63,046 nt of DNA, filler included, from Stramenopiles sp. TOSAG23-2 (GCA_900128395.1; 8 parts of 8 records of this genome joined end to end with filler, not necessarily neighbours in it); one strand, 5' to 3'; shown: positions 8,430 to 54,920, counted from the first letter of the whole stretch. The notes: a model not told the origin generated them from the letters alone. Numbers and translations are program-made.

Positions 8430-8734
8430 TAATAATAATATAATAATAATAAATAATTAAATAATATATTATTATATTTATTATTATTAATACTTGATGA
8501 TGAATGGCCTTAACATAGCCAGATAGCACCTAAATAGCACTAATATTTTTTTATTATTTTTTTTTTTATTATTATTATTATTTTTATATATATTTATTAT
8601 TATTATTTATTAAAATATAAAAATTCAAAAAACAAACTATATAAATCTCTACAAATCTATTATATTTTATAGATACTTGAAAAGGTAATATTATATGAAA
8701 TGTAAAACATATTTCATGTAATAATTGTTATAGT

Positions 8735-9870: not shown

Positions 9871-10459
9871 CTGCTATATACGACGTATGCTATATATATA
9901 TATATATACGTAGTGCTATATATATATATATATACGTAGTGCTATATATAGGTGGTGTGACTTTTTCTGACAAAAAGAAAGAAATGGAAATCAATATATT
10001 TATTATTCTGAATTATACCCAACCTTTTTGCCGCGGGCTTGGTGCCTGTAAATAATATAAACGCCGATTAATTTAAGTACCAATACAGTATACTAATTTA
10101 TGTAAATGTGATATTATAGTAAAATATTGGATATGTGATATGTACAAAACAAATCGGATATTCTCATATATTCATCAAAATTACTATTGGTTATATTTGG
10201 ATTTTTTGTAATAGTGCTATATATTATTAGGCACTTAGTACACAAGATATTTTATTAATAATAATTTATTGATGAATTTATTGTCATAATAATTGATTAG
10301 TTTCATTATTAGTTTCATTATAGTGTATTCCATTTATGGTACATATATATAATTTACGAAAACCACTTCTCCTTGGTATATTATTGTAGTACGTATATAT
10401 ATATATACACCAATACAACATTAAGAACAACAATTGAATTGTAATAATATCAGTATATC

Positions 10460-26559: not shown

Positions 26560-26659
26560 NNNNNNNNNNNNNNNNNNNNNNNNNNNNNNNNNNNNNNNNN
26601 NNNTTAATTAATTAANNNNNNNNNNNNNNNNNNNNNNNNNNNNNNNNNNNNNNNNNNNN
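26560..26659. other. Artificial contig-joining spacer N44-TTAATTAATTAA-N44 (also 53174-53273, 54821-54920, 56468-56567, 58114-58213, 59759-59858, 61403-61502)
   Basis: Identical 100-nt structure seven times; the 12-mer gives stop codons in all six frames; genes are cut at these points. Confidence 0.95.
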
Positions 26660-26660
26660 T

Positions 26661-29600
26661 CATCGAGCTCCTGTATTATCGTACCAATGGCGTTGGTCCT
26701 TATCTGATTACACTGGAGGTGACAAAGTTGCATGTAATGTATTTTTTATCTGGGAATCCATACGCCCATTACTTCGTGGTGCGGCAACATATTGTGTTAG
26801 TGATGAGACTATTTATAATCCAGCTGAATTGACCTCATTTGTTGAACGCCATGGGGTAACTGAATTCTTATTTACTCCGACATTGTTTCAAAATGCAATT
26901 TCACAAATGTCAAAAAAGCAAATTGCACAGAAATTAAAAACATTACGAACAGTTTATTTTAATGGTGAAGTTTTATCAAAGGAAGTTGCAAGGCGTGCTA
27001 TTGAATACCTTCCAAATGTACGTTTTATTAATGTATATAGTATCTCTGAATGCCATGAAGTTGGGGCCATTGATATCTCAAAATTAGATTTAAATGATCC
27101 CCCAACTGGATTTTGTCCAGTTGGTCACCCAAATCCATTGACTCCACCATATATTTTAGATGAAGCTTTGAATCTAGTAAAAGATGGTGAAGCTGGAGAA
27201 CTCTATGTTTCCGGTCCATTGCTTGCTCGTACATATTTAAATTTGCCAGAAAAAACATTGGAACGATTTCCAACAAGTCCATATAAGCAGGATTATGTTG
27301 AAGGTGGTGATAATCGTATGTATAGAACTGGAGATCGTGCTAGAATGTTACCAAATGGAATGATTGAAATTCTTGGCCGTTGTGCATTTATGGTTAAAAT
27401 TAGAGGTTACTCTGTTGTACCAGGTGCAATTGAGGTTGCATTATTAGATGCAGTAAATTTGGAAGCTTGCGCAGTTATTGCTGATGGGGCAGAAGGAACG
27501 GAGAAACGATTGGTTGCCTTTTTAGTTAGGAAGACGACTGGAAAAGTTACGGATGTTGTTCCATTGACTGAGGAAGGATCTCCTAAGTTGGCAGCTTTCA
27601 ATATCAATAAGACGACAGGAGCATGTAATGATATTCGTACGATAATGAAAGCTCGCCTTGCTCATTATATGGTTCCATCTGTTTACATTGAAGTCGATAA
27701 ACTTCCTTTGAACATCACGTCAGGAAAATTGAATGTAAAAGCATTAAATGCAATGGCTGAAAAACAAAGAAAAGCCATTTCAAATCCAAATGTAACGGAT
27801 AGACAGCATAGGGTAGATGATAACAAACGATTGGATATGTTGAAAATGTCATACCAATACATGAAAATTCCTGACGATGCTAGTCTTGAAACAGTTGAAT
27901 ATGCCTTGTTAATGGCATGGGAAGGGATATTAGCTTTGCCATTTGGAGCAATTACTAGAGAGGATGAATTTCTTGCTCTAGGAGGGCATTCCCTATCCGC
28001 AGCACGCCTTGTGAATACTATTGAAAGTATGTTTGGAGTAAAATTGCCAGTGTCACAAATTTTACAAGGTATAAAAGTAAAGCATCAAGCACGCGATATT
28101 GTAAGAGCATTAGATATTAAATGTGGAAGAAGAAAGGTTGCACCTGTTAAAAAAGGGGCTGCTCAATTGTTACAAAAAGTTATGGATTCAGCAACTATAC
28201 CAACATTGAGTGCAACCATGGTGAACAATTACATGAGTGAATCTAAAACTACCAAAGTCGTCCCAGATTTAAATAAATGTAAGCAAGTTTTTTTAACAGG
28301 TGCAACTGGATTTTTTGGTGCGCATTTATTATTTGAATTATTAATGGCTGGAGTGGAAAAAGTCGTTTGTTTAGTAAGAGACCGTGGAAGTGATCGTGCT
28401 GGCAAAAAGGTGCTGGTGGAAAATTTGAGATCATATGGACTTTTACGTCAATTAGGAAATACAGGTGTGGATAGAATTGTTGCAATTACTGGTGATTTGA
28501 CAAAAGTAGGGTTTGGCGTGGATGGTTTGTCGTATGAGGGAGTTTTAATGAAATCGGATGGAATTGTTCATTGTGCTGCATTTGTATCATTGGTAGAAAC
28601 ATTTGAAAATCTAGTATCAAGCAATGTTCAAGGAACAAAAGAAATGGTTAAACTTGCTGCTGCGATTAAAAGTGAAACTGGTGTATCTCCACGCGGGGTT
28701 TACATTTCTACGAATGGCATTTTTCCATTAAAACGTTTAAATATGAAAGATTTTCAACGCGTTAGTGTTGAAAATTGTAATTTTAACAATTTACCATCGG
28801 CAATGATTTATGGCTATAATGGTTCGAAAGAGACCGATGCTATTTCATCGATGTGCAATGGATATGGTTTATCAAAATGGGCTGCAGAAAAAATTGTTAC
28901 TGATTCAAGTGAAGCATTTGGGCTTGCATTTTCAACTTTTCGTATGGGTAATCTTTCACCAAATAGTAAAACTGGCCATAGCAATCCACTTGACTTTCAA
29001 TGTATGATTATACGAGGTTGTGATAAAGTTGGTGCTGTTCCTGTTGTACCAGAATGGCGAATTGAGGGAACTCCTGCGGATATAGCAGCACGTAACGTTG
29101 TTAGCTTATCTTCAACACATCAAACGGGAAATAAGATCTCCCATATCGTCCAACCTAATCATACACCATGGTCACAAGTAGTTGCTTGGATGGATGAAGT
29201 ACGTTTGGAGAGAAAATTGCCGAAATTGAAGCAAATAGCTTGGGATGAATGGCGAAATGTTGTCAAAGATATTGCTAAAACATCCGTAAGCACTACAAAA
29301 TTATTAGGCTTAATCGATTTGCTTCCTAATGGTGGTGTTGAGTATCTAAGTTGCCAACCATATTTAGAATGTAGCAAAACATGTATGGATTCAGACGATA
29401 TTGATAAATATAATATTTCAACAGCATCGTTAAAATTGTTTTTAAATCGATTGAAAATGCAAAAAATGTTTTCAATCAAGACGAAGAAAGTTGGAAATAG
29501 CGGTGGGAGTACTGAAGTCAAAACAGCTTCTATTGCTCAAACGATCAGGTCATTGGAAGGCAAAGTTGCCATTGTTACTGGGGCATCATCAGGTATTGGA

Positions 29601-30299
29601 CGTGGTATCGTCGTAGAACTAGCACGTGCCGGTTGCAATGTAGCTCTTGCAGCAAGGAGGTTGGAACAGCTAGAAATATCTAGAAAATTAATGTCAGAAG
29701 CTTGCAGTAACGGCACTGTTGAAACAGTATGTATTCCAACAGATGTAACAGACAGAGAAGCGATGATAAATTGCGTTGCGATTACAGAAGAGACACTTGG
29801 GCCAGTCGATATTATTGTAAATTGTGCTGGTGTGATGTATTTTGAAATGATGAAAAATGTTCATTGGGATGATTGGGAACGAACTGTTAATGTAAATTGT
29901 AAAGGACCAATGTATGGAATAGGCGCAGTCCTTCCTCAAATGATAGCGCGGGGTAAAGGTCACATTATCAATATTACATCTGATGCCGGTGTAACTGCAT
30001 TTGCTGGATTAGGTATATATAGTGGATCAAAATTTTTCGTAGAAGGCATGTCAAAAGCATTACGTTTAGAGACGGCATCTACAGGTATACGTGTTACTTG
30101 CATTCAACCAGGTAATGTAAAGACACCGTTATTAGCTACTTCTACTGATCAAGAAGGAATTAAAATGTATGGTGAGCCTAGCGGCGCTAAAGTATTGGAG
30201 CCAGCTGATATTGGGCGTGCCGTTGTATATGCAGCTACACAACCAGAATGGTGTGCTATAAATGACATTTTAGTCGAGCCACGTGAGGAGCCAACGTAA
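26661..30299 (+). CDS. NRPS-like A-T-R-SDR enzyme, glycine betaine reductase ATRR-like (5' truncated by contig end)
   Basis: Frame is open from the contig edge (HRAPVLSY..DKVACNVFFIWE..RPLLRG). A-domain motifs GELYVSGP, YRTGDRAR, VKIRGY, SGKL; T-domain LGGHSL; thioester reductase FLTGATGFFG, GYGLSKW; C-terminal SDR TGASSGIG, YSGSK. Confidence 0.9.
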   Translation, partial: HRAPVLSYQWRWSLSDYTGGDKVACNVFFIWESIRPLLRGAATYCVSDETIYNPAELTSFVERHGVTEFLFTPTLFQNAISQMSKKQIAQKLKTLRTVYFNGEVLSKEVARRAIEYLPNVRFINVYSISECHEVGAIDISKLDLNDPPTGFCPVGHPNPLTPPYILDEALNLVKDGEAGELYVSGPLLARTYLNLPEKTLERFPTSPYKQDYVEGGDNRMYRTGDRARMLPNGMIEILGRCAFMVKIRGYSVVPGAIEVALLDAVNLEACAVIADGAEGTEKRLVAFLVRKTTGKVTDVVPLTEEGSPKLAAFNINKTTGACNDIRTIMKARLAHYMVPSVYIEVDKLPLNITSGKLNVKALNAMAEKQRKAISNPNVTDRQHRVDDNKRLDMLKMSYQYMKIPDDASLETVEYALLMAWEGILALPFGAITREDEFLALGGHSLSAARLVNTIESMFGVKLPVSQILQGIKVKHQARDIVRALDIKCGRRKVAPVKKGAAQLLQKVMDSATIPTLSATMVNNYMSESKTTKVVPDLNKCKQVFLTGATGFFGAHLLFELLMAGVEKVVCLVRDRGSDRAGKKVLVENLRSYGLLRQLGNTGVDRIVAITGDLTKVGFGVDGLSYEGVLMKSDGIVHCAAFVSLVETFENLVSSNVQGTKEMVKLAAAIKSETGVSPRGVYISTNGIFPLKRLNMKDFQRVSVENCNFNNLPSAMIYGYNGSKETDAISSMCNGYGLSKWAAEKIVTDSSEAFGLAFSTFRMGNLSPNSKTGHSNPLDFQCMIIRGCDKVGAVPVVPEWRIEGTPADIAARNVVSLSSTHQTGNKISHIVQPNHTPWSQVVAWMDEVRLERKLPKLKQIAWDEWRNVVKDIAKTSVSTTKLLGLIDLLPNGGVEYLSCQPYLECSKTCMDSDDIDKYNISTASLKLFLNRLKMQKMFSIKTKKVGNSGGSTEVKTASIAQTIRSLEGKVAIVTGASSGIGRGIVVELARAGCNVALAARRLEQLEISRKLMSEACSNGTVETVCIPTDVTDREAMINCVAITEETLGPVDIIVNCAGVMYFEMMKNVHWDDWERTVNVNCKGPMYGIGAVLPQMIARGKGHIINITSDAGVTAFAGLGIYSGSKFFVEGMSKALRLETASTGIRVTCIQPGNVKTPLLATSTDQEGIKMYGEPSGAKVLEPADIGRAVVYAATQPEWCAINDILVEPREEPT

Positions 30300-30436
30300 T
30301 ATCTACGCACGTATACGTAATAGTGTGTGTAAGAGAGAGTGTAAAAAATATCTTGTTTTTCAATTTTTGAATATAAAAATTACATGTGTTATTTATGCAT
30401 ATCATATCATTACCTCTCGTATCATACGACGTCTCG

Positions 30437-30468
<32 letters not shown>

Positions 30469-30652
30469 ATTCTTTCTGGAGAGTAGGAATTATCATGAGT
30501 AAATTAAAAAATAAAAGTGTTATGCATTTTAATTAAAAATTTTATATATTTTTTGTACCGCACACAAATGATATCAGAGGCGTTTATTACAGTTTACAAA
30601 AACAATTTTTTTGCATCGTTATTCTATAATATATGATAGCACAATATCTCAC

Positions 30653-31332
30653 CTATCGCATAGAATGGGGCAATGGTGCTATCAATATTAAGACTATACA
30701 AATTAATTTAAATACAATATATGACCATAGAATAAAATCGTAGCTGGTGGATGAATCACGTATCAATCCGCAATATAAAGGTCCAAATCCGACGAAAATA
30801 TGTGTCAATGTTAATTGAATTGATAGCTTTTTTGATATTTCTTTCTTAGAAAAAATAGTGGAATATGCTACACCTGTAAGTAAATCATTGATTCCCATGC
30901 CAGAGCCAAATAACATAGAGTAGGCGCATATTGAGCCGAATGTAGTTCCATACTTTAAAAAGAAAATTGCTCCTATGCCTAAAATTAATGGCAATATCAT
31001 AACATATTTTAAAGCAGTTGATGGAATACGATCAACAAAAATTCCCACAACTGCCACAACAAGCATCGTAACAAATGAACCTATTACTTGTATATCTGCA
31101 ATTTCATCTAATTGCAAATTGGCTTTTGATGTATTTAAAATATCAACTAAATAAAATTGGATGCCACACCATGCAAATTCAACGCTCGATTGAGCAAATA
31201 TCAAACTCCAAAATAACAATGTACGTAATGTTTCTTTATATGATAACATTTTGTATCCATCACGCGTTAACTCATCCACCACATCATCAGTGTTGTTTAT
31301 ATTTGCTAATGGTGGAGAGGATGAAGCAGTAT

Positions 31333-31367
<35 letters not shown>

Positions 31368-33208
31368 GGGTGTATATCTTCTAAGCCTAAATCTGGATGC
31401 AAATGATATTTCACTGGGTCATCTCTTAATAATAATAGAACTACAAATAGTAATGTAAAAATCATCATTCCTAATGCAATATATGCACCACGCCATCCAT
31501 ATGATATTATTAAAACTGCTACTAATTTTTGTACCACAATCATGAAAAAAGAAAACGATACAACTATTAAACTTGCTTTACCACGATAAAATTTAAACCA
31601 TTTTGCAATAGATGTTGTTCCAGACAGTACAAGCATTCCTGGACCAAGCAACCTCAAAACAAAAAATCCAATACCAAGAAATAACCATGAATTGACTAAT
31701 GAAACAGACATGACCGCAAATGCAAATAATGGTGATACAAAAAGTACGACTGTAAACTGGCCATAAAGATGGAGTAATTTTCCAACAAATGGTAATATGA
31801 ATGCTGTTAAAAAAAGTGAAACAGCCCACATCACTGCCAAAGAACTTCTCGATAAATTTAATTCTTTTCTAATATCTGGTAAAAAAAATGCCCAACCAAA
31901 CGTATGCCCCGGAAACGATGCTAAGATTAAAATACAACAAGCAATCAATTGTTGTAAGCCTGCAATTTTAGAATAATATTTTTGATGCTTTTTTTGTTCA
32001 ACATCTTGCCCAATTATTATTGTTGATGATGGTATACAGAATAATGGAGGGAGACAAAAATTCTTCCTTCGACTTGGTGTTTGTAATTCTTCACCTTTCA
32101 CTTCTTCATCTTCTAATTGATACAATGTTGTATAACCCATCGAATCGTATCCAACGTACCCATCAGATTGATTCATTTGCGATGGATGTTGTGATTGTCC
32201 ATGCTTATAAAGTTCATCCACATTGCTACTCATAATATTCCATGGTATTAAACTTTTATCTAATTTCGTACAACATATAACTTTTAAATTACCACAATAT
32301 CCTTTATTATATTTATTATGGATTCGTAAACCACTATGTTTATCAATATATGTACCACGTAAATTTTCATTGGTTGTTTCACCATGACATATTAAATAGC
32401 AATTATGATATACACATAATGTTGTAATCGGTATGACAAAGATGATTGTAAGTAAAAATGCTACAGTTGTTAATATATGTTTGACGAAAAAAAAAGTCAA
32501 TATATACAAAATAATATTCTCTGTTGCATTATTATTATTATTATATTTGCCATTTGTTACGGCATCATAATATTCCAAATATAAATCGAATAGACAAATG
32601 ATTAAAGATGCTATACATAATATAGTTATGGACGTTATAAATATTAAAAAATATTTATAATTTCGTTTTCCAATATCCACACCAAGCCATACACAATGAT
32701 GATCAAATGTTTCCACGCATACATCACACATTTTACAATGTCTTGCTCGTTCATGACGAAAATGTTGGCAACGTTGGCACCACACTTGGTTTTTATTACT
32801 ATTGTCTACATCAGAGGATGATGATGATGGTAATAACAAAGAATTGGACGTATTTGGAGAGTTTCGGTGTTGTTGTTGATGATTATTATAATTTTGAAAA
32901 AATGTTGGCCGAGGTATAATACCTGGTTCAATAAATATTGTCAAAAATAATGAAATGATAGTGATGCATGATATGATTGGAAAAACAATATTTAAATAAA
33001 TCAATGTTACCATATCATGCATAATAGCTTGGCTTTTATTTACATTTATATTGTAATATTTTGGTATTAAAAAAATGGATTCATAGATACATACAAATAA
33101 TAAGGATAAAATTGTAAATGGTAATAATTTTGGTGCATCATTGCCTAATATAATTTTACCATTGCATAGAAATCTATTTGCACCTGGCCAATTTTCATAC
33201 AAACGCAT
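30653..33208 (-). CDS. DHHC palmitoyltransferase fused to an MFS transporter
   Basis: Single 851-aa ORF. ERF2/ZDHHC9-like N-terminus ([15 protein letters not shown]), Cys-rich DHHC domain ([16 protein letters not shown]), TTxE (TTNE). C-terminal half has about 12 TM with MFS motifs ([32 protein letters not shown]). Confidence 0.85.
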
Positions 33209-35181: not shown

Positions 35182-38100
35182 TTACTCCGTTAAATACATC
35201 ATTTGACTTCCTCCTTCCAATAATTCAACAACATTTTCTCTACTTAAATATAATGATTCATCTTGATCTTTATATCGACTCCATATTTTATTATGTTTTT
35301 CCAATATCTTATTTGTTTTCATAGACGTTCGATGATTACGAGATAAACGTTTTATTTTCTCTACTTAAATATAATGATTCATCTTGATCTTTATATCGAC
35401 TCCATATTTTATTATGTTTTTCCAATATCTTATTTGTTTTCATAGACGTTCGATGATTACGAGATAAACGTTTTAAAATCGATACACTAAACACTCTTAA
35501 ATGTGTACCATAATCGATTTGATCATCCGCATCATTGCTAAGATGGTATTGCTTTTGATATGCACCACTGCTTTCCCATTCTAAATAATTAATCAAAATT
35601 TCTATAAATTCTGAATTTACAATTTGACGCATTAACAATTCAATATCATTTCCTATAGTTATCATACGTTCAATTAATGCTAAACATTGAGATGCTATTC
35701 GAGAATTTGGGGATGCATTACCTAATGTTTTTGATGATGCTGGCAAAGTGCTATGTAGCAACAGTAAAACTGCTTGTAAACCACTACTTATAGCAGCTTG
35801 TTCTACTGCTACGTGACTTGTACACATAACCATAGCATTACGCAAAAAACATTCAATGAAAATTAAATTGTCATTATTGCCAGCAAATGTTCCAAGCAAT
35901 TTTAAAAAATCGCTTATGATACCTAACGTAGCAATTTCATCGATGACATATGGATAATTTTTCAATAAAACCACAAATGCTTGGCAGGAGAGGACGAACG
36001 ATTTCATTTGCGAGGAATCCAACATAGTTTTCTTCATTGTTTCAGATAATGCACGTGCAAATCCAATTGGATCAGATAATGCTACCGTCATCGTACTTCC
36101 TGGATCTTGTAAAAAACGCTTGACAAATACACCATACACAACAAATTTACCATAATGCAATGAGTAATTTAATTGAAACTCATCTTCCCCAGGCAATTTC
36201 CACTTCATAGATGTCATACCTTGTAATTCTCCATCTTTTGCAACTTCTGATTTTAAATGTTCCAATGCCATTCGTAACTCTTCGCGGCATGTACCATCCC
36301 ATTGCAATTCAGGTGTATCATGCAATTTATCAAATTCATTTGGTACCCTTCCAGACATTGTCTTATCACATACCAATTTCAACAAAGGCATTGGTAAGAT
36401 TCGCTCTAATGATACTTTCGTGTTTTGAACTCTATCAACTCGCTTTTCCAAAATATGGGCTAAAATGGAAGCACATGTTATTCGTGCTTTTAATGAAAAC
36501 ACATTCACAACCGTAATATGCAATAAATCAACAATTATGCCAGCATCTACCATTAATATACTAATCGATGCATTTCTAGATAATAAATCTAATAATAGTA
36601 AAATCAATTCTAGTGTAAATTCATATACATCTTGTTGTTGCTGCATGTCATTGCTCATATTATTATTGTTATTATTATTGTTACTACTACCATTATTATG
36701 GTGATAAGCGGAAATGCTGTATTTTCTCATATGCCCGATCATTGCATATAATACAGATATATATTGGCTAACAATTTGTTCCACGCAAAATTTATACGTA
36801 GACATTTCATCTAATAACAAATGCAACGATTGATAACCTAAAACATTTAATACATTTTTCGTTATGAATAAATATTCTAATAAATCCTTGGTAAATTTTT
36901 CTATATTTATTCCTTTAAGACGTTCTTCTTGTTCTACAAATGGACGTAAATAAACATCGCCAACAAGTACCTGATTTCTCAAAATATCATGAGAAAATCC
37001 TTTCACAGAATTTAATTCTTTGTTGAATATATCTATATCCTTTTTTTCTTCTTCGTCATCGTCGGAATCATCGGAATCATCGTTCAAGAAATTTGAGACT
37101 GCTAATTCATTTGCACGATTATCCACGTAATCAACTACTTTACCACGCATCTCGCGATTCCAAATTAACCTCGGGGTAAATGCTTCTGAATGAAGTAACA
37201 GCATGCAGTTTTCAATCGATGTTGAACCTTCTTCAGCACCTAAAAGGTTTGCACATTGATTGACAAGTGGCCTTGTAACCAAATGTTCCAATGCTTTACG
37301 TGCATATTCATGTTCAGAATCCCACACAGCGCCAACTTGACCTGCTGCACGATATCCAGAAAGTGCAAATAACGTTTCAACAGCTGATTTAACAAATTGA
37401 ACATTAAACCCTTCTTTGCTGATTTCTTTTCCTAAGGACCATGATAACATTGAAAAGAATAGACCTTTCTCCAAGAAAGTGGATCTTTCTCCTTTTGTAC
37501 CATGAAATGCAAAATTTCTACCAGCACGAAAGGAGGCTTGTAACACTGGAAATTCCTTTGAAGACGTTAACGATTCATGGATTGCAGCAACCGCTAGATA
37601 CGATGATGCAACTGCTTTTCTTCCAACATCTGTTAATGAAAATGCTGATAATGCTATCATGCAGCCTTCATATAGAGACTTTCTAGAATCATCACCTATA
37701 GCAGTTCGCAAGGCGCGAATAATAACGTCAAATCCGCCCCATCTCATCAATTCCTTTGCATTTCCAGCATGTGTCGCAGCTGTGCATGCCATTAAACGAA
37801 CGGCTAGGCCAGATAAATTTGTAACAAATTCAGATTCTTGTTCTACAATATGCATTAAACTGTCATACATTGGATATTTAAATTTCTCTAATATTTCTGG
37901 GCTATTAGAATACAAGACAATTTGCGCTTTCAAAAGCAAACTTAAGTTTATTATATCTACATGTTCATCTTGGTGTGTGTTCAAATATTTATCAACTGCG
38001 CTAACATCTGCCTTGGAGACTCGTCCATCAATAAAGAGTATCATACGTTCATATGCCTCATTGATTTTTTCAAACTTTTCTTTGCCAACAGAAGGATTTC

Positions 38101-41100
38101 GATCTGGATGATACAAACGCGCTAGTTTAAAATATGTTTTGCGTAATATTTTTTTGTCCAAAGCTGCTACCTTTGCTTTTGTCGATATATCTAATCCTAA
38201 AATTAATGACGCTTCCGTGAATGACATAGTATCATCGCCTTGAGCCTTTGTCTTCTCCGTCCGCCAAGCATCCAACACGGCACGTAATAATTCTACAGGA
38301 TCATGAATTTTCCACGATGGAAATTTCTCAAAATTGCATAAATTTCGTAAATAATATCCACAACAATACATTTCTTCACTGAGTTGTGGATAATGTATTG
38401 GTGGTATTGGATCGTAATGATAAAAAAAAGCTTTGTTGCTTATCTTATCTGCATTTTCGTTATATCCTGTCATAAAATTACTTTTGTTGTTGTTGACCTG
38501 TTTCGTGGAAAAGCTTAAAATCGATTTATAATAATCTCGCACATGCTCTTTTAATTGAGATACCATGTATTGTCGCATTTCCGGAGACCAAATGGCTTCT
38601 GGTGTATCATAATCACCAACAAGGATCGTTGCAAATTCCTGATAGCTATGCGTAGATAAAAAACAAACTAACGCATCTGGTAAAATAAATGATAAATAAC
38701 TTTTCTGACCATTGCGTCGTAAATTATTTTTCAATGGAAAAACTTGATGCTCGTGTGTCATTTTTAACAAACATGATATTGCCTCTACCGTGCGTGTCGC
38801 ATTACCATCGTAAATTAATGCAAAGTAGAAAATTCCAGTCAAATAAAGCTTTCCAATAACAGACGCATTGTTTTCTATTATTATAGCAATCAAAGTTGCT
38901 GCTTGGCCGACAATTTTTTCATCACGTGCTAGTAAACATGAAGCAATAATAGGCAAAAGCGCTTTGCTACATAAAATAGTTCGCACAGTTGGAAGTGGCC
39001 AAACCGATGCATTGTTTTTAGGATTAAATACACTATGCGATGCGCATAATCCACGTAACGTCTCTAAAGATCTTGATGCCATCATACTTTCTGGACTACC
39101 TGCCTTTGCACTTGGAACCACACGTAAAATTCTAATACAAGCATTTAAACCATTTGCGTCAACAAAATTATCAATTTCATATGGGAAATATTTACCTAAA
39201 ATTTGTATTGCACTTAGGGTTTTTGAAATAATACTAAATAAATAATCGGATGATCCACCAGATCCGCTACTGCTATTATTAAGATCATCTTCCATGTCAT
39301 CATCCACATCGCTATTTTCATGGAGATAAAATCCATGATTTTCCGCAGCATTTACTTCAATAAATTCAGATAATGATGAAAGTAAATCCCCTAGTGTATT
39401 TAACGCCTCTCCGACACGTGTTGCTGCTAATGCATCATGGTGGAAGGAAACAAGCACCTCTAGTATCGAAAGTAAAGTCCCAAGTGTTTTGTTTTTTACA
39501 TAATTAGTATGAATATTTTTTACAATCTCTTTTAATACGCCATTATGAACCATATGAAATAAATATGGTGTTTCTAACTTTTCGATTGGAAAATCTCTCG
39601 CCGAATGACGCAATGATAGCATTGGTGCTAAAAAATAATGTCCAATTTTCACAGCTTCCTCATGTGCTTTATATTTAATTTTAAATTCTTTGTAATTCCA
39701 AGTTACATAATCGATTTTTCGTTTTTCCCTTACTGTAGTTGCAAGTAGGCTATTGTTCAGATCATTAGCGTTCTTCTTCCCGGTGCTTGCTGGTTTTGTA
39801 ATATCACTTTTAGCAATAGTAGATTTTGTTGAAATATGTATCGATGTTGCACGACCTTGTTCCAATGATTTGATTTCATTTTCCAAGCGTATACGAAGCT
39901 CCTTCCTACATGATTCATTCCACACTAATTTTGCATGATAATGATCATGTTGCAATGCTAAGAAAAATCTTTCCCATTTTGGTGCTAAGTCTGTAGCCAT
40001 GCCTTCCCCTGGAAGTGGCGACGATGAACGACCATTTGTTACTTCAGTCAATATGTTATAAAATACATCTGGTAATATATTAGATAAAATTGACAAACCT
40101 TCTTGAAAATCGTCCATCCATAACGAAAACATGAAACGACTTTGTTTGCGAATACGCTCATTTCTTCCAAAAAGTGCACTATGGAAATGAGACAAAGCTG
40201 TGCCGTCGCACAATACATCGTATCTTAATTTTGAAACAAAATCAATGTTTGTATCATGATCAGCATAAATGAGCTGATTGGTCGAATTGGTAGTGATTTG
40301 CCTTGGTGGTGGTGGTCGAAAATTTTTATTATTTTTAGATGATATTACAATTTCACGCATAATCAACGCTGCTAAATCATTTATTGATGGCGCATCAAAT
40401 GAAAAAAGGCCCATTAATATGCTATGATCTGCTAATAACTTCAATATTGTTTCCCTCGATCGTGACGGAGTATTTGTATTTCTAGGTGATATTTCACAAA
40501 TCAATGATGAAAATAAATCAAGTACATTATGTACAATTAAAATGGATGCGTTGTTATTTTTACTGAGAGTCGATTCGTTTTCATTTTCAACATTACCATT
40601 ATTATTATTATTATTGCTTTTATTGCACGAATTTGATAGTAGCTGGATACAAATACGAATTCGTTGAAACGACATCAATTCTTCACGTCTATGCTTTTCA
40701 GCATAATTAATTCGTTCAATTTTATTTTTATTGGTACTACTACTTCTGCGCCTTTCCTTTTTGTTGCTATTATTATTATTGTCATTATTATTCATATTAT
40801 TAGTATTGCTGTTACTATGTTTTACAAAATCAGAATCTTCTCCAGCAATTGTAGTACCGGGGAGCATCAATGACAATGAGGCATCGTCAAAAATTACCAT
40901 ACGTTTCAATAATTGTAAGATATGATATATCAATAGTGAGCGTGATGGGCCGTTATCAATACAGCCATTATTATAGGAAGATGAGATTGTATTACTTTTA
41001 CTTTGCCCTGCTGCAGACAGAATGCGAAAAAAACGATTAATCATTACTACCACATTTGGTATGTCTAAAAACGATTCAAAACCATTAATTGCAGAGAGTA

Positions 41101-42688
41101 ATAATTCAAATGCATGCATTAAAAAAACTACATCTTTCGCCCCATCAACAAAACTAGTAGAATTGATTTGTTGCGCTAAAACGCTCATGCAATTACATAA
41201 TGCATTTCGATCTTCAAAGGATGTTACACCACTTGCTTCACAGTTACTTGCAAGCAATCTTGCCATATCAACAAGCACATAATGCATTGCTCCTAAATCA
41301 TCCCTATCGCTTCTCGCCTGCAAAGCAACAATTGATGCTATTTTTCGAATAAATACACCTTCCGCCGCTGCTCTATGTGCATAAAAAACTTCACTATTTT
41401 TATATTTCATAGTTGAATTATTCAAATTCGTATCGTTTAATGCTACCACACGAGCGTTTAACAACATGCGGCACATATGTATATCGCCAAGATATATACG
41501 TAATGAATTATTCTCCAAGTGATGTATCATACCACTTAAAACATCATCTCTATTCATGCAATCATATTCTACGAACGTATCTTCATATAAAATAGTGAAT
41601 CTGGAATTGCTCATACTCGAACATACTATTGCATATATACGGGAAATTTTAAACCAATTAACTAATAAATGTTTCTCTAAATCAATATCACCTAAATAAT
41701 CATCCATTAAGACTAATGAACAATTTCCTTGCATTTGTTGCACCGGGGATAAGCGTTTACTAGGTGATAAAGAAGATGAACCTGATGATGGATTGCTGCC
41801 GGTGTTATTAGTATTATTGCGGTTGGAACCCGTGGTTGCTGAATAAAAACGCTTTACACGTGTTGCAGGAAAAGTTGCAAGTGGTAAATGTTTACCAATA
41901 CGTGGACCTGATCTTGACCAATCATAGACATTTAAATAATCATCCGTATTAATATTTGTACTTCCAACATTGCTTGTAATCAAAAATCCTGATTTTATCA
42001 AAAGTGATTCAATTGAAATTGATTTTACATGTCCTTGATCTTTCAATAATTTAAGGCCGACTAAGTTCATTCGATTTTCCATTTCATTTATCATTTCATC
42101 CCGTCGAGTAAATGCTTCAATAATATATGTTGAACCAGATGAGTCAGTTATTGCTAATGCATTTTCTAAATCTTGCACAACTGAAACGTATTTTATATTT
42201 TCAAATGGTATATTAAAGTAGCTAATATTTGCATCGTTTTTATTTTTCCCTTCTATTGATCCTATTTTTAATTTAATGTTAAGTTTTACACGTTGTTTTA
42301 ATATATCTACTAATTCACTATTAAAATTGATATCATCATTTTCAACATCTCCACTTGCTTCTTTACGAAATTTCAAAACATCTGCTAATAACCTTGATCT
42401 CATAGAGCATGATAATGTCCATTTCGTCGATTTACGTACGGACCATGAGGAATTATTATTATTCATTTCAATGGTGAATTCATCTTCATTATTGACATTA
42501 GGTTTGATCTCTTTAATATCGCTTAGATTCCATTTCTCTTTTACAGTTGGATCAACCGTTGCTGCATCAAAAATTATAATACTGGTTTCATTGATACCAA
42601 AAATAAAAGCAGACTTTCCAGTCATCCATGAGTGTAAAAATATTAAATATTGTTTATTAAATTTAACAAACAACTGGAAACATTGCAT
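35182..42688 (-). CDS. DNAJC13: RME-8/DNAJC13 (GRV2) endosomal J-domain protein
   Basis: N-terminal HSWxxK-like motif, IWN-type repeats (LVWNESCRKEL, AIWSPEMR, LIWNREMR), central J domain (YFKLARLYHPDRNP). Removing one copy of the 121-bp duplication at 35233-35474 gives the C-terminus ..SRENVVELLEGGSQMMYLTE* ending at 35182. Confidence 0.88.
35233..35474. repeat. Perfect tandem duplication, 2 x 121 bp inside the RME-8 3' end
   Basis: ATTTTCTCTACTTAAAT... occurs at 35233 and 35354 and frameshifts the last codons of RME-8. Confidence 0.9.
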
Positions 42689-42761
42689 TCATAATCAAAT
42701 CAATCAATCCATCAACAATTACATATATTTATTCTATAAAACGCACACACACAATAAAAAT

Positions 42762-43649
42762 ATGGCATCGTCCCCTAACAAACCAGCAATGGAACCGATT
42801 AAAATGCAAACAACAAAAGCAGTTTCGGCACTTGTGAAATATGTAAATGGTAAAAAAACTAGTAATAACTTATTTGAGGAGGATACCTTTGTAACTTTAA
42901 TTATTACATTAAGACGTACACCAGATAGTGGCAAAAATAAACCAATACGCTTGACAATCCCACATTCCTTGTACAATTCCGAAAGTGGTGATTATCAAAT
43001 GTGTTTATTTGTCAAAGATAAGGACGCATCTAAATTAAAACAACGTTTTGAAGCAACTCCAGTTACAGGATTGACACAAGTTATAGGTTTACAAAAATTA
43101 CGTACAGATTACCAACAATATAAAGCAAAGAGAAAATTATGTAGTTCATATGATTTGTTTTTATGTGATGGTTCTATTTTACCAATGATGACGAAAGCAT
43201 TAGGAAAAGAATTTTTCAAAAAGAAAAAGCAACCAGTACCAGTTCGTTTAGAAGTGAACAATTTAAAAAAAGAAATTGGACGTGCACGTGATGCAACTTA
43301 TATGTATGTAGGCTTTGGTACAGCTTTAGGTATACGTTCAGCACGGCTATCATTTGATGAAAATCAAATAGTTGAAAATATCATGGCAATTATTGAAGGT
43401 GCTGGTGAAAAAGTACCAAGAAAATGGAAAAATATACAAGCAATGCATATTAAAACACCAAATTCTGTTGCTTTGCCAATTTATAATAAATTAGAAGCAG
43501 ATGAAGAGGAGGATGAAGAGGAAGAAAAAGAAGTGAAAAAGAAAGAAACTGTATCCAAAAAACGTAAGAAAAAAGATGATGAGAAAAAAGATGAGAAAAA
43601 AGAAAAGAAAAAAAGCAAGAAAAGCACGAAAAAGAAAAGTCGTCGTTGA
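42762..43649 (+). CDS. RSL1D1: Ribosomal L1 domain-containing protein (RSL1D1/CIC1/UTP30-like)
   Basis: KPIRLTIPHSL, CLFVKD, RKLCSSYDLFLCD, LGKEFFKKKKQPVPV, WKNIQAMHIKT..SVALPIY; K-rich tail. ATG at 42762. Confidence 0.9.
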   Translation: MASSPNKPAMEPIKMQTTKAVSALVKYVNGKKTSNNLFEEDTFVTLIITLRRTPDSGKNKPIRLTIPHSLYNSESGDYQMCLFVKDKDASKLKQRFEATPVTGLTQVIGLQKLRTDYQQYKAKRKLCSSYDLFLCDGSILPMMTKALGKEFFKKKKQPVPVRLEVNNLKKEIGRARDATYMYVGFGTALGIRSARLSFDENQIVENIMAIIEGAGEKVPRKWKNIQAMHIKTPNSVALPIYNKLEADEEEDEEEEKEVKKKETVSKKRKKKDDEKKDEKKEKKKSKKSTKKKSRR

Positions 43650-44465: not shown

Positions 44466-46991
44466 CTACGGATCAATATTTTCAATGACAAGACCTAATT
44501 CATTTTCCCTTACAAATCCATTAAAATGATTCGATTTTAAATTATTTAAATCAACAAAATTACTTCCAGAAATATGATAACCACAACGATTTAAATATGG
44601 ACGTACAAATTTAGAAAGTTCGTCCAATTTTTGTTCATATACATCAACAGTTGGCATTTCCGCTATATTTTCATCTTCTACTACTGTATTTATTGATGTA
44701 ACATCATGTTCTTCTAACCATTCAATTACTTCCATGATTTTCTCTTCAATACGTTCCAATTCATCATCGGTCAACTTATTTTTAACTTTTTCATTTGAAA
44801 TACTGCTATCATCACCTAATAATTTATTATTCACTTCAAATGCAAATTCATTTAAATCATTTCTTGCTTCAATTAAACGTTTCTGTTTACGATCTTCCTC
44901 CCTATTTTTTTCTGCATCTTTTAACATACGATCAATTTCATCATCTGATAATTGACCTTTATCATTTGTAATAGTAATTTGATTGCGTTGTCCAGTGGAT
45001 AATTCTGCTCCATATACAGTTAGCAATCCATTTGCATCCACATCTAATGTTACTTCTATCTGTGGCACACCACGTGGCATTGGTGGTAAATTGCTAATTG
45101 TAAATTCACCTAATTTATTGCAATCACGTGTCATTTGACGTTCACCTTCAAAAATTTGTATAATAACTGCATCTTGATTATCTGTATTAGTAGTAAATAC
45201 ATGTCGTCGTTTAGTTGGCACCGTCGTATTTCTACGTATGACTTTCGTCATGATTCCCCCAGCAGTCTCCAATCCAATACTTAATGGTAATACATCCAAT
45301 AATAACAAACGTTGTGTTTTCAAACTAGCTACTCCACTTAAAATAGCTGCTTGAACTGCTGCACCATATGCCACTGCTTCATCGGCATTTATTGCTTTAT
45401 TTAATTCTTTTCCATTGAAATAATTACTTATATTTTGTTGTATTCGTGGTATCCGTGTTGATCCACCAACAAGAACAATTTCATGAATATCGTTTTTAGA
45501 CATGCCTGAATCTTCTAAGACTCTTTTCACAGGTTCCAACGTCCGTTGAAACCACTCTTCGCAAATACTTTCCATTTCAGAACGTGTTAATTCAAATGAT
45601 AAATCAACGCCTTGGAAAAAAGGCTTCACTTCCACCATTGCTTTCAATTCCTTTGATAATGCTCGTTTCGCACGTTCACATGATGTGCGTAAACGTCTTG
45701 ATGCACTTGGATTATTAATTGTTGGATCTGGCAATGCTGGGTTTTCTCTTCGAAACTTTTTAATAAAATAATCCATTATTAAATTATCAAAATCTTCACC
45801 ACCTAAATGTGTATCACCTGCAGTTGCTTTCACTTCAAATATACTATTTTGTACACTTAATAATGTCACATCAAATGTACCACCACCTAAATCAAAAACG
45901 ATAATATTTCGTTCCCCACGCTTATCTTTCACAATATCTAAACCATATGCAATAGCAGCTGCGGTCGGTTCATTGATGATTCTTAAAATTTTCAATCCGG
46001 CAATTGCACCTGCTGCTTTTGTCGCATACCGTTGTGAATCATTGAAATATGCCGGTACGGTAACTACTGCTTTTGTAACTTTTCGTTGTAAATATGATTC
46101 AGCTATTTGTTTCATTTTATATAATACCATCGAAGAAATTTCTTCTGGTAAATAATATTTTTTTTCATTATTGTTATTTTTATTGTTAATTACTTGTATG
46201 ATTGGTAGATCGGTTGTGACGTTTGATTTCGCATTGTTTTTGGTGGATGAGGATGCCGTGGTGGTTTTTGTGGTGGTGGTGGTAGAGGTGGTGGTAGAGG
46301 TTGAATTATTAGTATCACTATTAGAAAGGGAAGACGAAGAAGAATTGAATAACCCAGAATCAACAACATCGAATGGCCAATGTTTACAATCTGATTTCAC
46401 AATTGGGTCAGATAATCTTCGTCCAATTAATCGTTTTGCATCAAATACTGTACATTTTGGATATATAGCACATTTACTTTTTGCTGAATCTCCTACTACA
46501 GTTTCATTATTTGCAAAGCATACATAACTAGGAGTTGTCTTGTTCCCATTTTCATTGGGAATAATTTCAACACGATCATTACGCCATACACCACAACAAG
46601 AATATGTTGTCCCTAAATCTATACCTATTGCAATATCATCATCATCATCGAATTTATTATTATTATTATTATCTTCTTCCTTCAAGGAATTTGATAATAA
46701 TTCTTGTTCTGCAGGGGTGACTACTATTGGTGTTCCGAAGCCTAAATCTTTTCCAGATAATGCCAAAACACCTTGACATTTCTCCATATCCTCTTTAACA
46801 AATGTAATTGTAACATATGATTTATCATTTGCTATTTGTATTGTTTCAATGTTTCCAAATGATTCAAAAATTTGCTTTATAATTTCTTGTGGTAAATTTT
46901 CAGGGAAACCAGCTGCATTGTACATTCTACCATTGTTGTCCGTTGCAGTAGTAGTAGCAGTAATGTCTTCTAATTTTCGTTTCTTAGACAT
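44466..46991 (-). CDS. Cytosolic-type HSP70 with N-terminal RRM-like extension
   Basis: [54 protein letters not shown], substrate-binding domain and lid. About 120-aa N-terminal extension; ends IENIDP, not EEVD. Confidence 0.92.
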
Positions 46992-52809: not shown

Positions 52810-53273
52810 AGCGGGGTGATATGGTGAAAAGGCGATGAATACCATGTGTGTGTGTGTGTGTGTGTGTGTTGGCACATATCATACTTGAGATACACATTTT
52901 ATGATGTATCATACACTCGTATGATATAGTATGTGTGGCGCAGCAATGAAAGCTCGTCTATTTTATATATAAAAAAGAAAAAGAGTGTATATTACGTAAA
53001 ATAATACGTGTACGTGAATATGATGTATGAAGAAGGATATTCGCAAAAAAAAAATATAATTTATATATGACAGCCGAAAAGATCAAAGGTGCCGATTTTA
53101 CACATAGGATAAAATTTGTACTCTTAGTATATTAATCATATTTAAAAATTACTTTTTTGTGCACAAAAATGCANNNNNNNNNNNNNNNNNNNNNNNNNNN
53201 NNNNNNNNNNNNNNNNNTTAATTAATTAANNNNNNNNNNNNNNNNNNNNNNNNNNNNNNNNNNNNNNNNNNNN

Positions 53274-54820: not shown

Positions 54821-54920
54821 NNNNNNNNNNNNNNNNNNNNNNNNNNNNNNNNNNNNNNNNNNNNTTAATTAATTAANNNNNNNNNNNNNNNNNNNNNNNN
54901 NNNNNNNNNNNNNNNNNNNN

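What the first reader, a model, noticed from the sequence alone, without database searches (positions are those of the whole stretch)
26661..30299. ATRR-type (A-T-R-SDR) glycine betaine reductase candidate in a non-fungal-looking protist
Seen: adenylation, GGHSL carrier, thioester reductase and a second SDR reductase in one intronless ORF, with no condensation domain in the visible part. Known: this A-T-R-R layout defines fungal ATRR, which reduces glycine betaine to choline by two successive 2-electron reductions. The A-domain stretch HRAPVLSY..ACNVFFIWE..RPLLRGA matches my recollection of that family. Inference: the organism may convert the osmolyte glycine betaine to choline, a little-recognised route in protists, or act on a related betaine or sulfonium acid.
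Basis: partly seen in the sequence, partly recalled or inferred. Interest (0 to 1): 0.7.

Follow-up and report, generated by a model that had tools for sequence, protein, structure and literature searches.

The report
Betaine-reductase-type enzyme gene, marine protist
This is a real, expressed gene of an uncultured marine protist for a four-part enzyme of the family that turns the osmolyte glycine betaine into choline in fungi, a family already known from protists, but its true substrate is open because a diatom relative was reported to act on tryptophan.

Summary
Window 26661-30299 (+) is one open frame of 1212 codons with a partial adenylation domain, a GGHSL carrier, a thioester reductase (R1) and a short-chain reductase (R2). 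Its 5' end is cut by a contig boundary, not by an internal gap: the window is a string of contigs joined by N/TTAATTAATTAA spacers. A 99% identical metagenome contig (L001) and protein (P0002) supply the missing 208 residues: 1420 aa, no condensation domain.

It aligns end to end with a fungal protein named glycine betaine reductase ATRR (37% identity). All catalytic motifs are intact. It keeps three of the four published betaine-cage residues; the fourth is Trp-to-Tyr. In a tree it lies in a non-fungal clade beside diatom enzymes. RNA contigs from three poly(A)/oligo-dT marine RNA libraries cover it without introns.

The function is inferred. The nearest tested relative, diatom PtNRPS1 (43% identity), was published as a tryptophan-to-tryptophanol reductase (PMC13194791). 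I rate glycine betaine to choline at about 0.55. ATRR homologues in protists were already reported in 2019, 2022 and 2026, so this is a new member of a known kind.

The parts
26560..26659 (.). Contig spacer (44 N, TTAATTAATTAA, 44 N). It marks the end of one contig and the start of the next; the gene's first 208 codons lie beyond it and are not in the window.
   Evidence: 7 identical spacers in the window; N-terminal 208 aa of P0002 has no match in the window, only E>1 hits.
26661..30299 (+). Partial coding sequence (codons 209-1420 of the full gene, plus stop TAA at 30297-30299) of an ATRR-family A-T-R1-R2 carboxylate-to-alcohol reductase.
   Evidence: It is 99.3% identical over 3809 nt to L001, which holds the whole 1420-codon gene.
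26661..27731 (+). Adenylation domain, C-terminal two thirds (from just after core motif A3 to the A10 lysine). Contains YRTGD at residues 221-225, GRCAFMVKIRG at 239-249 and SGK with K356.
   Evidence: AMP-binding 28-193, AMP-binding_C 257-351; TIGR01733 residues 29-272.
26742..26753 (+). Cage residues F28 and W31, in the motif NVFFIWE. They correspond to F201 and W204 of the fungal enzyme.
   Evidence: residue names from 10.1101/559534.
26955..26957 (+). Y99, at the position of the third cage residue W270. This is Trp in 92 of 92 fungal-side rows; on the protist side it is Tyr 17, Phe 9, Leu 3, Trp 1.
27057..27059 (+). E133, at the position of the anionic pocket residue E304.
27906..28067 (+). 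Carrier (thiolation) domain. The phosphopantetheine serine is S444 in LGGHSLS (nt 27990-27992).
28284..29456 (+). R1, thioester reductase domain. Contains TGATGFFG at residues 546-553 and catalytic Y735 in YGLSK (nt 28863-28865), which aligns with Y814 of A. terreus P0079 (Y811 in the A. nidulans paper).
   Evidence: (TIGR01746, residues 542-932, below cut-off).
29562..30296 (+). R2, classical short-chain dehydrogenase (aldehyde reductase). Contains TGASSGIG at residues 973-980, AARR at 997-1000 and catalytic Y1120 in YSGSK (nt 30018-30020), which aligns with Y1181 of P0079 (Y1178 in the paper). It is the best conserved domain: 56% identical to the fungal R2.
30300..30337 (+). Probable 3' untranslated end. 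RNA contigs of two studies stop at 30330-30337. This is a weak hint only.
   Evidence: table 8 (X14 record 4, X17 record 15).

Best explanation
The ORF encodes residues 209-1420 of a single-module NRPS-like enzyme of the ATRR family from an uncultured, AT-rich marine protist.

Proposed mechanism, by homology with the enzyme dissected in Aspergillus nidulans:
1. The A domain adenylates a small carboxylic acid with a positively charged head group, most likely glycine betaine. The head group would sit in a pocket of F28, W31 and Y99, next to E133.
2. The acid is loaded as a thioester on the phosphopantetheine arm of S444.
3. R1 reduces the thioester with NADPH to the aldehyde, using catalytic Y735.
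4. R2 reduces the aldehyde with a second NADPH to the alcohol, choline, using catalytic Y1120.

Shown here: the domains, the intact motifs, the family placement, and the presence of the sequence in poly(A)/oligo-dT RNA libraries. Inferred: every chemical step, and above all the substrate.
For: - Architecture A-T-R1-R2, with no C domain in the full-length 99% twin.
- All 120 listed relatives have E <= 4.1e-204 and carry the reductase and SDR domains. Named ones are diatoms at 39-42% and fungi at 36-38% identity, among them 'Glycine betaine reductase ATRR' P0083.
- One collinear BLASTP alignment to P0083: 452 of 1220 columns identical.
- Tree of 53 rows rooted on an A-T-R module of a large NRPS. 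The window joins P0002-P0005 (SH-aLRT 100). This group is sister to the diatom-side clade (100), and both together are sister to the fungal clade (99).
- Cage: F201, W204 and E304 are identical, and W270 is replaced by Tyr, which is still aromatic.
- A nine-position pocket string reads VFWYNVEVK. It differs only at the Trp/Tyr position from the fungal-side variant VFWWNVEVK, found in 5 of 93 rows.
- All catalytic and cofactor motifs of A, T, R1 and R2 are intact.
- R2, which in the fungal enzyme needs the substrate's positive charge, is the best conserved domain: 56% identical to fungal R2, against 45% for A and 29% for R1.
- RNA contigs of three poly(A)/oligo-dT RNA libraries from three studies cover 24-29 of 30 bins with no joints.
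- Labelled betaine enters choline lipids in ocean communities, where protist atrr transcripts occur (PMC9321204, passages).
Against: - No assay exists for this protein or for any member of its subclade.
- Identity to the tested fungal enzyme class is only 37-40%, outside the >60% band of fungal orthologues.
- The cage Trp270, invariant in 92 of 92 fungal-side rows, is Tyr here. On the protist side it varies Y/F/L, so a strict three-aromatic cage is not conserved in this clade.
- The nearest experimentally studied relative is P0012, inferred to be PtNRPS1 (43% identity, sister subclade). It was reported to convert L-tryptophan to tryptophanol, with knockouts losing tryptophanol (PMC13194791).
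- RNA-library contigs do not strictly prove transcription; the tool itself gives this caveat. The one DNA run laid covered only 3 of 30 bins.
- The A. nidulans sequence itself was not in hand. Residue numbers were mapped through A. terreus P0079.
Confidence: 0.55

Rival explanations
1. It is an orthologue in function of diatom PtNRPS1. The A domain takes L-tryptophan (or another aromatic acid), and R1 and R2 reduce it to tryptophanol, a signalling molecule, rather than making choline.
For: - PtNRPS1 is the closest studied relative. P0012 fits 11 of 11 residue-number pairs given in the paper, and is the only one of 390 stored proteins to fit 6 or more.
- P0012 is 43% identical to the window protein over its whole length and lies in the sister subclade.
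- The paper reports in vitro product identification by MS/NMR, and loss of tryptophanol in CRISPR knockouts.
- Both proteins lack the fungal Trp270: Phe in P0012, Tyr here.
Against: - The residues invoked for tryptophan binding (Y70, E88, Y91, F214, F215, W217, E319) are conserved just as well in fungal betaine reductases, so they do not mark a different specificity.
- No acidic residue replaces the canonical alpha-amino-binding Asp; the motif NVFFIWE is identical to the fungal one.
- The published assay was an end-point reaction: 0.5 mM enzyme, 10 mM substrate, 12 h. The text contains no occurrence of 'kcat'.
- The authors' own earlier hydroxamate assay rated aromatic amino acids poor substrates, and they state that other substrates are possible.
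- In the passages and the Discussion that I read, no assay with glycine betaine is reported. I did not read the supplements.
- The window's pocket string is one change from a fungal variant and two from P0012.
Confidence: 0.17
2. It has the same chemistry but a different small onium acid of marine plankton as its physiological substrate. An example is dimethylsulfonioacetate, giving sulfocholine, because the pocket is widened by Trp-to-Tyr.
For: - Fungal ATRR already reduces sulfobetaine about ten times more slowly than betaine.
- Dimethylsulfonioacetate is an osmolyte of marine phytoplankton (PMC3721227).
- Phosphatidylsulfocholine occurs in diatoms, and its sulfur comes from sulfur amino acids (PMC4483651).
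- Position 270 is Y/F/L throughout the protist-side clade.
Against: - This is pure inference; no paper in the library links the two. A search for 'glycine betaine reductase' together with 'sulfocholine' found 0 papers.
- The other pocket positions are as in the fungal enzymes.
- Fungal ATRR is strictly size-selective: it rejects DMSP and beta-alanine betaine.
Confidence: 0.15
3. It is a LYS2-type alpha-aminoadipate reductase, a generic carboxylic acid reductase, or a secondary-metabolite NRPS-like enzyme unrelated to betaine.
For: The LYS2 model TIGR03443 and the MxcG model give partial hits of about 257 bits. The best PDB sequence matches are ordinary NRPS A domains such as LgrA.
Against: - TIGR03443 scores 257 bits against a cut-off of 1030.
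- LYS2 and CARs lack the fused SDR R2, by established knowledge of those families.
- The 120 best relatives are all ATRR-type.
- The window falls inside the ATRR clade relative to an A-T-R outgroup.
Confidence: 0.03
4. The contig is a fungal or other contaminant in the assembly, not part of the protist.
For: The assembly is a chain of unlinked contigs and shows at least one probable chimeric join.
Against: - Composition is the same as in the rest of the window: 29-40% G+C in every 2-kb bin.
- The protein is 36-38% identical to fungal ATRRs.
- Hsp70 and RME-8 on the same contig have only unnamed marine relatives above 61% and 32% identity respectively.
- The same DNA occurs in marine metagenomes and metatranscriptomes: 20 of the 24 listed runs hold it, from 15 studies.
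Confidence: 0.02

Closest known systems
ATRR, NRPS-like glycine betaine reductase of Aspergillus nidulans and other fungi (Hai, Huang & Tang 2019; preprint 10.1101/559534: passages and the middle third read)
   Same: - A-T-R1-R2 order with no C domain.
- End-to-end collinear homology (37% identity to the named fungal ATRR P0083).
- Identical NVFFIWE motif with F201 and W204; E304 kept.
- Catalytic Tyr of R1 and R2, the Gly-rich NADPH motifs and the AARR motif all kept.
   Different: - Identity is 37-40%, against more than 60% among fungal orthologues.
- Cage residue W270 is Tyr.
- The protein is about 140 residues longer (1420 aa against 1273-1280), with longer linkers.
- It lies in a separate non-fungal clade.
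- Activity is untested.
PtNRPS1 (Phatr3_J47104) of the diatom Phaeodactylum tricornutum, reported L-tryptophan-to-tryptophanol reductase (Zhao et al. 2026, PMC13194791: outline, passages and Discussion read; supplements not read)
   Same: - Same architecture.
- 43% identity to P0012, which I infer to be PtNRPS1 from 11 of 11 residue numbers.
- Same larger protist-side clade.
- Both lack Trp at the fungal position 270.
   Different: - It lies in a sister subclade, not the same one.
- Position 270 is Tyr here and Phe there.
- Two further residues named in the paper differ: Y84 is F here and Y91 is F here.
- The window organism has no close named relative and is not shown to be a diatom.
MiATRR of the root-knot nematode Meloidogyne incognita (PMC11050029: passages read)
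   Same: A non-fungal A-T-R1-R2 homologue, assigned as a betaine reductase by homology. That paper also accepts pocket differences from the fungal code: 5 of 10 positions differ.
   Different: It is an animal lineage. Its evidence is yeast tolerance and RNAi phenotypes, not enzyme assays. No nematode sequence was in my alignment, so its relation to the window protein is not measured.
LYS2 (alpha-aminoadipate reductase) and bacterial/fungal carboxylic acid reductases (A-T-R)
   Same: An adenylation-thiolation-thioester-reductase core, and the need for phosphopantetheinylation.
   Different: They have no fused SDR R2 and stop at the aldehyde. The LYS2 model scores far below its cut-off (257 against 1030 bits).

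Membership tests
ATRR (A-T-R1-R2 glycine betaine reductase family, broad sense) | Domain order A, T, thioester reductase R1, SDR aldehyde reductase R2 in one polypeptide, without a condensation domain | tested here: met
   for the window part. for the full-length 99% twin P0002: AMP-binding 36-401, NAD_binding_4 753-1020, adh_short 1176-1373, nothing N-terminal of the A domain.
ATRR (A-T-R1-R2 glycine betaine reductase family, broad sense) | Full-length homology and tree placement with named or characterised ATRRs rather than with other A-T-R enzymes | tested here: met
   one alignment of 1220 columns, 37% identity, to 'Glycine betaine reductase ATRR' P0083; inside the ATRR clade relative to an NRPS A-T-R outgroup. 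There was only one outgroup, and no LYS2 or CAR sequences could be fetched.
ATRR (A-T-R1-R2 glycine betaine reductase family, broad sense) | No Asp/Glu at the alpha-amino-binding position of the A domain (PheA D235 equivalent) | tested here: met
   The motif NVFFIWE is identical to the fungal ATRR motif. That the D235 equivalent is the Val of this motif rests on my recalled numbering of PheA. The paper states only that the Asp is not conserved.
ATRR (A-T-R1-R2 glycine betaine reductase family, broad sense) | Cage residues F201 and W204 and the anionic E304 | tested here: met
   F28, W31 and E133 of the window protein. Numbering was mapped through A. terreus P0079, in which positions 201/204/270/304 read F/W/W/E.
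ATRR (A-T-R1-R2 glycine betaine reductase family, broad sense) | Third cage residue W270 | tested here: not met
   Tyr (Y99) in the window. Trp in 92 of 92 fungal-side rows; Y 17, F 9, L 3, W 1 in the 30 protist-side rows that have a residue there. Tyr is still aromatic, so a cation-pi cage remains possible.
ATRR (A-T-R1-R2 glycine betaine reductase family, broad sense) | Catalytic Tyr of R1 (Y811) and of R2 (Y1178), and the Gly-rich NADPH motif of R2 (G1036) | tested here: met
   Y735 in YGLSK, Y1120 in YSGSK, and TGASSGIG at 973-980. Their roles come from the mutants in 10.1101/559534.
Fungal ATRR orthologue group (strict sense) | More than 60% identity among orthologues and placement in the fungal clade | tested here: not met
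   36-38% identity to fungal members. The window lies in a separate clade with SH-aLRT 100.
ATRR (A-T-R1-R2 glycine betaine reductase family, broad sense) | ATP- and NADPH-dependent reduction of glycine betaine to choline | not testable with these tools
   This needs an enzyme assay.
PtNRPS1-type tryptophanol synthase (Zhao et al. 2026) | Pocket and nearby residues named in the paper (Y70, Y84, E88, Y91, F214, F215, V216, W217, F285, E319) | tested here: inconclusive
   In P0002 these read Y, F, E, F, F, F, I, W, Y, E: 6 of 10 identical. The same residues are about equally conserved in fungal ATRRs, so they do not discriminate between the two functions.
PtNRPS1-type tryptophanol synthase (Zhao et al. 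2026) | Same orthologous subclade as PtNRPS1 | tested here: not met
   P0012 lies in the 26-row diatom-side clade. The window lies in the sister 7-row clade. That P0012 is PtNRPS1 is my inference.
LYS2 (L-aminoadipate-semialdehyde dehydrogenase) | Score above the curated cut-off of the equivalog model TIGR03443 | tested here: not met
   257.4 bits against a cut-off of 1030.1.

The most novel reading that the evidence does not exclude
The marine protist branch of the ATRR family (this gene, its uncultured relatives and the diatom enzymes) has lost the invariant fungal cage tryptophan. It may have shifted to another onium acid of the plankton, such as dimethylsulfonioacetate, and so make sulfocholine, the head group of the long-known but biosynthetically unexplained phosphatidylsulfocholine of diatoms. 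In that case neither published activity (betaine to choline, tryptophan to tryptophanol) would be its main role.
Probability: 0.1. Interest if true: 0.7.

Novelty: new member of a known kind. Interest (0 to 1): 0.35.

Why it matters
Glycine betaine is one of the most abundant osmolytes in the sea. Its direct reduction to choline would feed membrane-lipid synthesis in grazers and algae without the methylation pathway.

This gene shows that a lineage of uncultured marine protists with no close named relative carries an intact enzyme of this family, and that the sequence is present in poly(A)/oligo-dT RNA libraries. That extends a distribution already noted in the literature.

Its main value is as a test case. 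The two published activities for the family disagree for the protist branch: betaine in fungi, tryptophan in a diatom. The pocket of this protein is one residue away from some fungal-side variants. One side-by-side assay on this clade would settle what thousands of marine atrr transcripts are being counted as.

Tried and rejected
- Own genome search: no genome is held for this window. A PPTase, choline and betaine pathway genes, and the 5' end could therefore not be sought in the organism.
- Earlier scan notes by place and by sequence: nothing found.
- The listing of cluster members, to name the unnamed relatives: the query could not be made because the database was off. The taxa of P0003-P0011 and of the 50% representatives stay unknown.
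- Representative search: 139 of the best 150 were multimodular NRPSs of 4,355-7,864 aa, which score by summed A domains. Only 11 single-module ATRR-type representatives appeared. No LYS2 or CAR came out, so the tree has a single outgroup cut from P0297.
- PNAS version of the discovery paper: not held. Its SI figure with the 10-residue code was not seen.
- Taxonomy from Hsp70 and RME-8: neither gives a close named relative. Hsp70's named hits are mostly oomycetes at 56-59% and RME-8's are land plants at 25-32%. The lineage remains unplaced; 'stramenopile' is only a weak lead.
- DNA run X3 laid on the gene covered only 3 of 30 bins despite a word share of 0.92. It gives no independent DNA confirmation. 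A bin without cover is not evidence of absence.
- L004 and L005 (37% relatives on 338-404 kb contigs, about 52% G+C, fragmented ORFs) look like ordinary fungal-type loci and were dropped.
- Structure prediction was not run. The tool returns no coordinates, so cage geometry could not be measured.
- Conserved gene neighbourhood: the true neighbours in L001 are an alpha/beta hydrolase upstream and an MFS transporter, a methyltransferase and a DHHC protein downstream. They give no functional clue that I could defend.


Full report
WHAT IS THERE. The + strand frame that starts at 26661 is open for 1212 codons, to the TAA at 30297-30299. Pfam finds, in order:
- the last 166 positions of the AMP-binding profile (residues 28-193) and a weak AMP-binding_C match;
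- a PP-binding domain (residues 416-469) with LGGHSLS;
- NAD_binding_4 (residues 545-812);
- adh_short (residues 968-1165).
NCBIfam's thioester-reductase domain model covers residues 542-932, at 188.4 bits against a cut-off of 213.35, and its amino-acid adenylation model covers 29-272.

THE MISSING 5' END. The sequence just upstream is not an ordinary gap. It is 44 N, TTAATTAATTAA, 44 N. The same spacer occurs seven times in the window. The window is thus a chain of separate contigs: 1-26559, 26660-53173, and then pieces of about 1.6 kb. The gene begins at the first base of its contig. The IQ-motif ORF to its left is not a neighbour.

No genome is held for the window, and the missing N-terminus is not elsewhere in the window. 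It can be read from relatives:
- P0002 is 99% identical (11 differences in 1212 residues) and has 1420 residues.
- L001, a metagenome contig, is 99.3% identical over 3809 nt. It carries the whole gene at 6001-10263, with the ATG after about 550 nt of AT-rich spacer.
- P0002 has AMP-binding from residue 36 and nothing before it, so there is no condensation domain.
- One RNA contig (X14 record 1) runs 132 nt past the contig start.

FAMILY. Of 1292 database proteins with E <= 0.001, the best 120 were listed. All have E <= 4.1e-204 and the same set of domains. After the 99% twin come unnamed environmental proteins at 62, 57 and 54%. Then follow a block at 39-44% whose named members are all centric diatoms (Thalassiosira, Cyclotella), and then fungal proteins at 36-38%. 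Among the fungal ones is P0083, named 'Glycine betaine reductase ATRR'. BLASTP against P0083 gives a single alignment from the first residue to the last but one: 452 of 1220 columns identical. By domain, identity to P0083 is 45% (A), 27% (T), 29% (R1) and 56% (R2). The LYS2 equivalog model reaches 257 bits against a cut-off of 1030.

A search of 1.84 billion cluster representatives returned 150 best hits. Eleven were single-module ATRR-type proteins. The other 139 were giant multimodular NRPSs that score through many A domains.

TREE. I built a quick maximum-likelihood tree (LG+G4, SH-aLRT only) of 53 rows: the window, P0002-P0031, 11 named fungal proteins, 10 representatives, and an A-T-R module cut from the NRPS P0297 as the sole outgroup. 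I left out the other 79 fungal-side hits for speed.
- The window groups with P0002 (100), then with P0003 (99), and then with P0004 and P0005 (100).
- With P0006 and P0381 this forms a 7-row clade (92).
- That clade is sister (100) to a 26-row clade holding every named diatom.
- The resulting 33-row clade is sister (99) to the 14-row fungal clade.
- Four long-branched representatives (P0354, P0280, P0253, P0269) lie nearer the root, and the tool warns that their placement is unsafe.
The protein is thus a member of the ATRR family in the broad sense, but not of the fungal orthologue group.

ACTIVE SITES. The discovery paper names F201, W204 and W270 as an aromatic cage, and E304 as the nearby anion, for the trimethylammonium group. 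It names Y811 (R1), Y1178 and G1036 (R2) as catalytic or cofactor residues, each tested by mutation (10.1101/559534). I did not have the A. nidulans sequence. In A. terreus P0079, positions 201/204/270/304 read F/W/W/E, so I used it as the ruler.

The window protein has F28, W31, Y99 and E133 at these columns. Across the alignment of 131 ATRR-type rows:
- F201 is F except for Y in 2 rows.
- W204 is always W.
- E304 is E except for D in 4 deep-branching representatives.
- Position 270 splits the family. It is W in 92 of 92 fungal-side rows. That set is P0031-P0121 plus P0249 and P0315; only some of these are named, and all the named ones are fungal. In the 30 protist-side rows that have a residue there it is Y 17, F 9, L 3 and W 1.

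I also read a nine-position pocket string, at positions chosen by my recalled mapping of the PheA specificity code onto motifs A4, A5 and A10. The window gives VFWYNVEVK. Fungal-side rows give VFWWNCEIK (68 of 93), VFWWNVEIK (11), VFWWNCEVK (7) and VFWWNVEVK (5). The window therefore differs from one fungal-side variant only at Trp/Tyr.

All other motifs are intact: YRTGD, GRxxxxVKIRG, the A10 lysine, GGHSL, TGATGFFG and YGLSK in R1, and TGASSGIG, AARR, NCAG and YSGSK in R2.

EXPRESSION AND HABITAT. Of the 24 listed public runs, 20 hold the stretch or part of it, from 15 studies. They are marine or seawater metagenomes and six RNA libraries. Two small runs may be the source of the assembly and do not count.

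I laid three poly(A) or oligo-dT RNA libraries from three studies and one DNA run. RNA contigs cover 29, 25 and 24 of 30 bins at 95-100% identity, with no joints, which is consistent with an intronless mRNA. Contigs of two studies end at 30330-30337, about 35 nt after the stop; this is a weak hint of the 3' end. The tool warns that contigs from RNA libraries do not prove transcription. The DNA run covered only 3 bins.

THE ORGANISM. The window is eukaryotic, with genes for Pan3, a SET-domain protein, sideroflexin, Tubby, RME-8, Hsp70 and a DHHC protein. Its 2-kb bins have 29-40% G+C, and the ORFs are long and mostly uninterrupted. Hsp70 and RME-8 lie on the same contig as the gene, and neither has a close named relative:
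- Hsp70: a 100% twin, then nothing above 61%. Named hits are mostly oomycetes at 56-59%.
- RME-8: 99, 46 and 45% to unnamed proteins, then land plants at 25-32% over at most 40% of the query.
It is not a fungus. Its lineage stays unplaced.

WHAT IT PROBABLY DOES. By homology, the enzyme adenylates a small acid, loads it on the carrier, and reduces the thioester to the aldehyde in R1 and the aldehyde to the alcohol in R2. Each step was shown for the fungal enzyme.

For the substrate, glycine betaine is the best-supported candidate:
- The pocket is almost that of the fungal enzymes.
- Tyr can still give a cation-pi contact.
- R2, which in the fungal enzyme depends on the positive charge of betaine aldehyde, is the most conserved domain.
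- Field work shows betaine carbon entering choline lipids where protist atrr transcripts are present (PMC9321204, passages).

THE COMPLICATION. A 2026 paper reports that PtNRPS1, the A-T-R1-R2 homologue of the diatom Phaeodactylum, converts L-tryptophan to tryptophanol, and that knockouts lose tryptophanol (PMC13194791; outline, passages and Discussion read). The eleven residue numbers given there fit P0012 at 11 of 11, and no other of the 390 stored proteins at 6 or more. I therefore take P0012 to be PtNRPS1. It is 43% identical to the window protein and lies in the sister subclade, closer than any fungal enzyme.

Several points weigh against carrying that function over:
- The residues invoked for tryptophan binding are equally conserved in fungal betaine reductases.
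- The assay was an end-point reaction with 0.5 mM enzyme and 10 mM substrate for 12 h, and the text never mentions kcat.
- The authors' earlier hydroxamate assay rated aromatic amino acids poor substrates.
- I found no betaine assay in what I read.
- The authors themselves allow for other substrates.
The conflict is real and cannot be settled by sequence. I give betaine to choline 0.55, tryptophan or another aromatic acid 0.17, another small onium acid 0.15, and the rest to other readings or none of these.

NOVELTY. The family and its presence in protists are in print:
- Boysen et al. 2022 attribute marine atrr transcripts mainly to dinoflagellates, stramenopiles, haptophytes and Amoebozoa.
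- Zhao et al. 2026 list diatom and Tara stramenopile homologues.
This gene is a new member from an unplaced uncultured lineage. The one feature worth carrying forward is the clade-wide loss of the fungal cage tryptophan. A bolder reading, dimethylsulfonioacetate to sulfocholine, rests only on side activities and metabolite reports. No paper in the library holds both 'glycine betaine reductase' and 'sulfocholine'.

EARLIER SCAN NOTES. These describe bacterial single-reductase relatives of ATRR and an Ostreococcus fusion protein in other genomes. They are unchecked leads, were not tested here, and did not change this reading.

Noticed in passing
window 26560-26659, 53174-53273, 54821-54920, 56468-56567, 58114-58213, 59759-59858, 61403-61502: The window is a chain of contigs joined by 44 N + TTAATTAATTAA + 44 N, a spacer with stops in all six frames. 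Gene order across these points is arbitrary. After 53273 the pieces are only about 1.6 kb each. A different 39-N gap lies at 2711-2749.
   Followed up: yes
window 30653-33208 (-), junction near 32060-32066; L001 10710-16038: The 851-aa ORF that seems to fuse a DHHC palmitoyltransferase to an MFS_1 transporter is probably an artefact or a deletion. In the 99% identical contig L001 these are separate genes of 386 and 494 aa. Between them lie 2.77 kb that hold a 316-aa methyltransferase gene. The window joins the DHHC C-terminus to about residue 27 of the transporter at a short shared AT-rich string.
   Followed up: partly
window 30476-30516: A roughly 40-nt stretch in the intergenic region after the gene attracts very many unrelated contigs: summed depth of about 16,400 in metagenome run X3, with loose ends on both sides. 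It is a widespread short repeat or low-complexity element. A (TA)n run lies just before it, at about 30440-30466.
   Followed up: no
window 44466-46991 (-): Divergent Hsp70 with about 270 extra N-terminal residues; the profile match starts at residue 273. Apart from a 100% twin, no database protein exceeds 61% identity.
   Followed up: partly
window 35336-42688 (-) and 42276-43649 (+): A 2450-aa RME-8/DNAJC13 homologue whose nearest named relatives are land plants at 25-32% identity. Its ORF overlaps by about 400 nt, on the opposite strand, the start of a 457-aa ORF with a ribosomal L1 domain. One of the two starts is probably miscalled.
   Followed up: no
window 49435-51963 (-): An 842-aa ORF with a strong DUF6259 match (E 4.9e-71) in a eukaryotic contig; function unknown.
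   Followed up: no
L001 4035-5441 (+) and 12545-13495 (-): The true neighbours of the gene in the intact contig are an alpha/beta-hydrolase-fold protein 560 nt upstream and, downstream on the other strand, an MFS transporter followed by a small-domain methyltransferase. I could not argue a link to betaine or choline for any of them.
   Followed up: partly
proteins P0253, P0269, P0280, P0354 (representatives): Deep-branching A-T-R1-R2 proteins with Asp instead of Glu at the E304 position and Cys instead of Asn at position 272. Two of them have Ile or Val at position 270. This is possibly a further subfamily with another substrate; their taxa are unknown.
   Followed up: no
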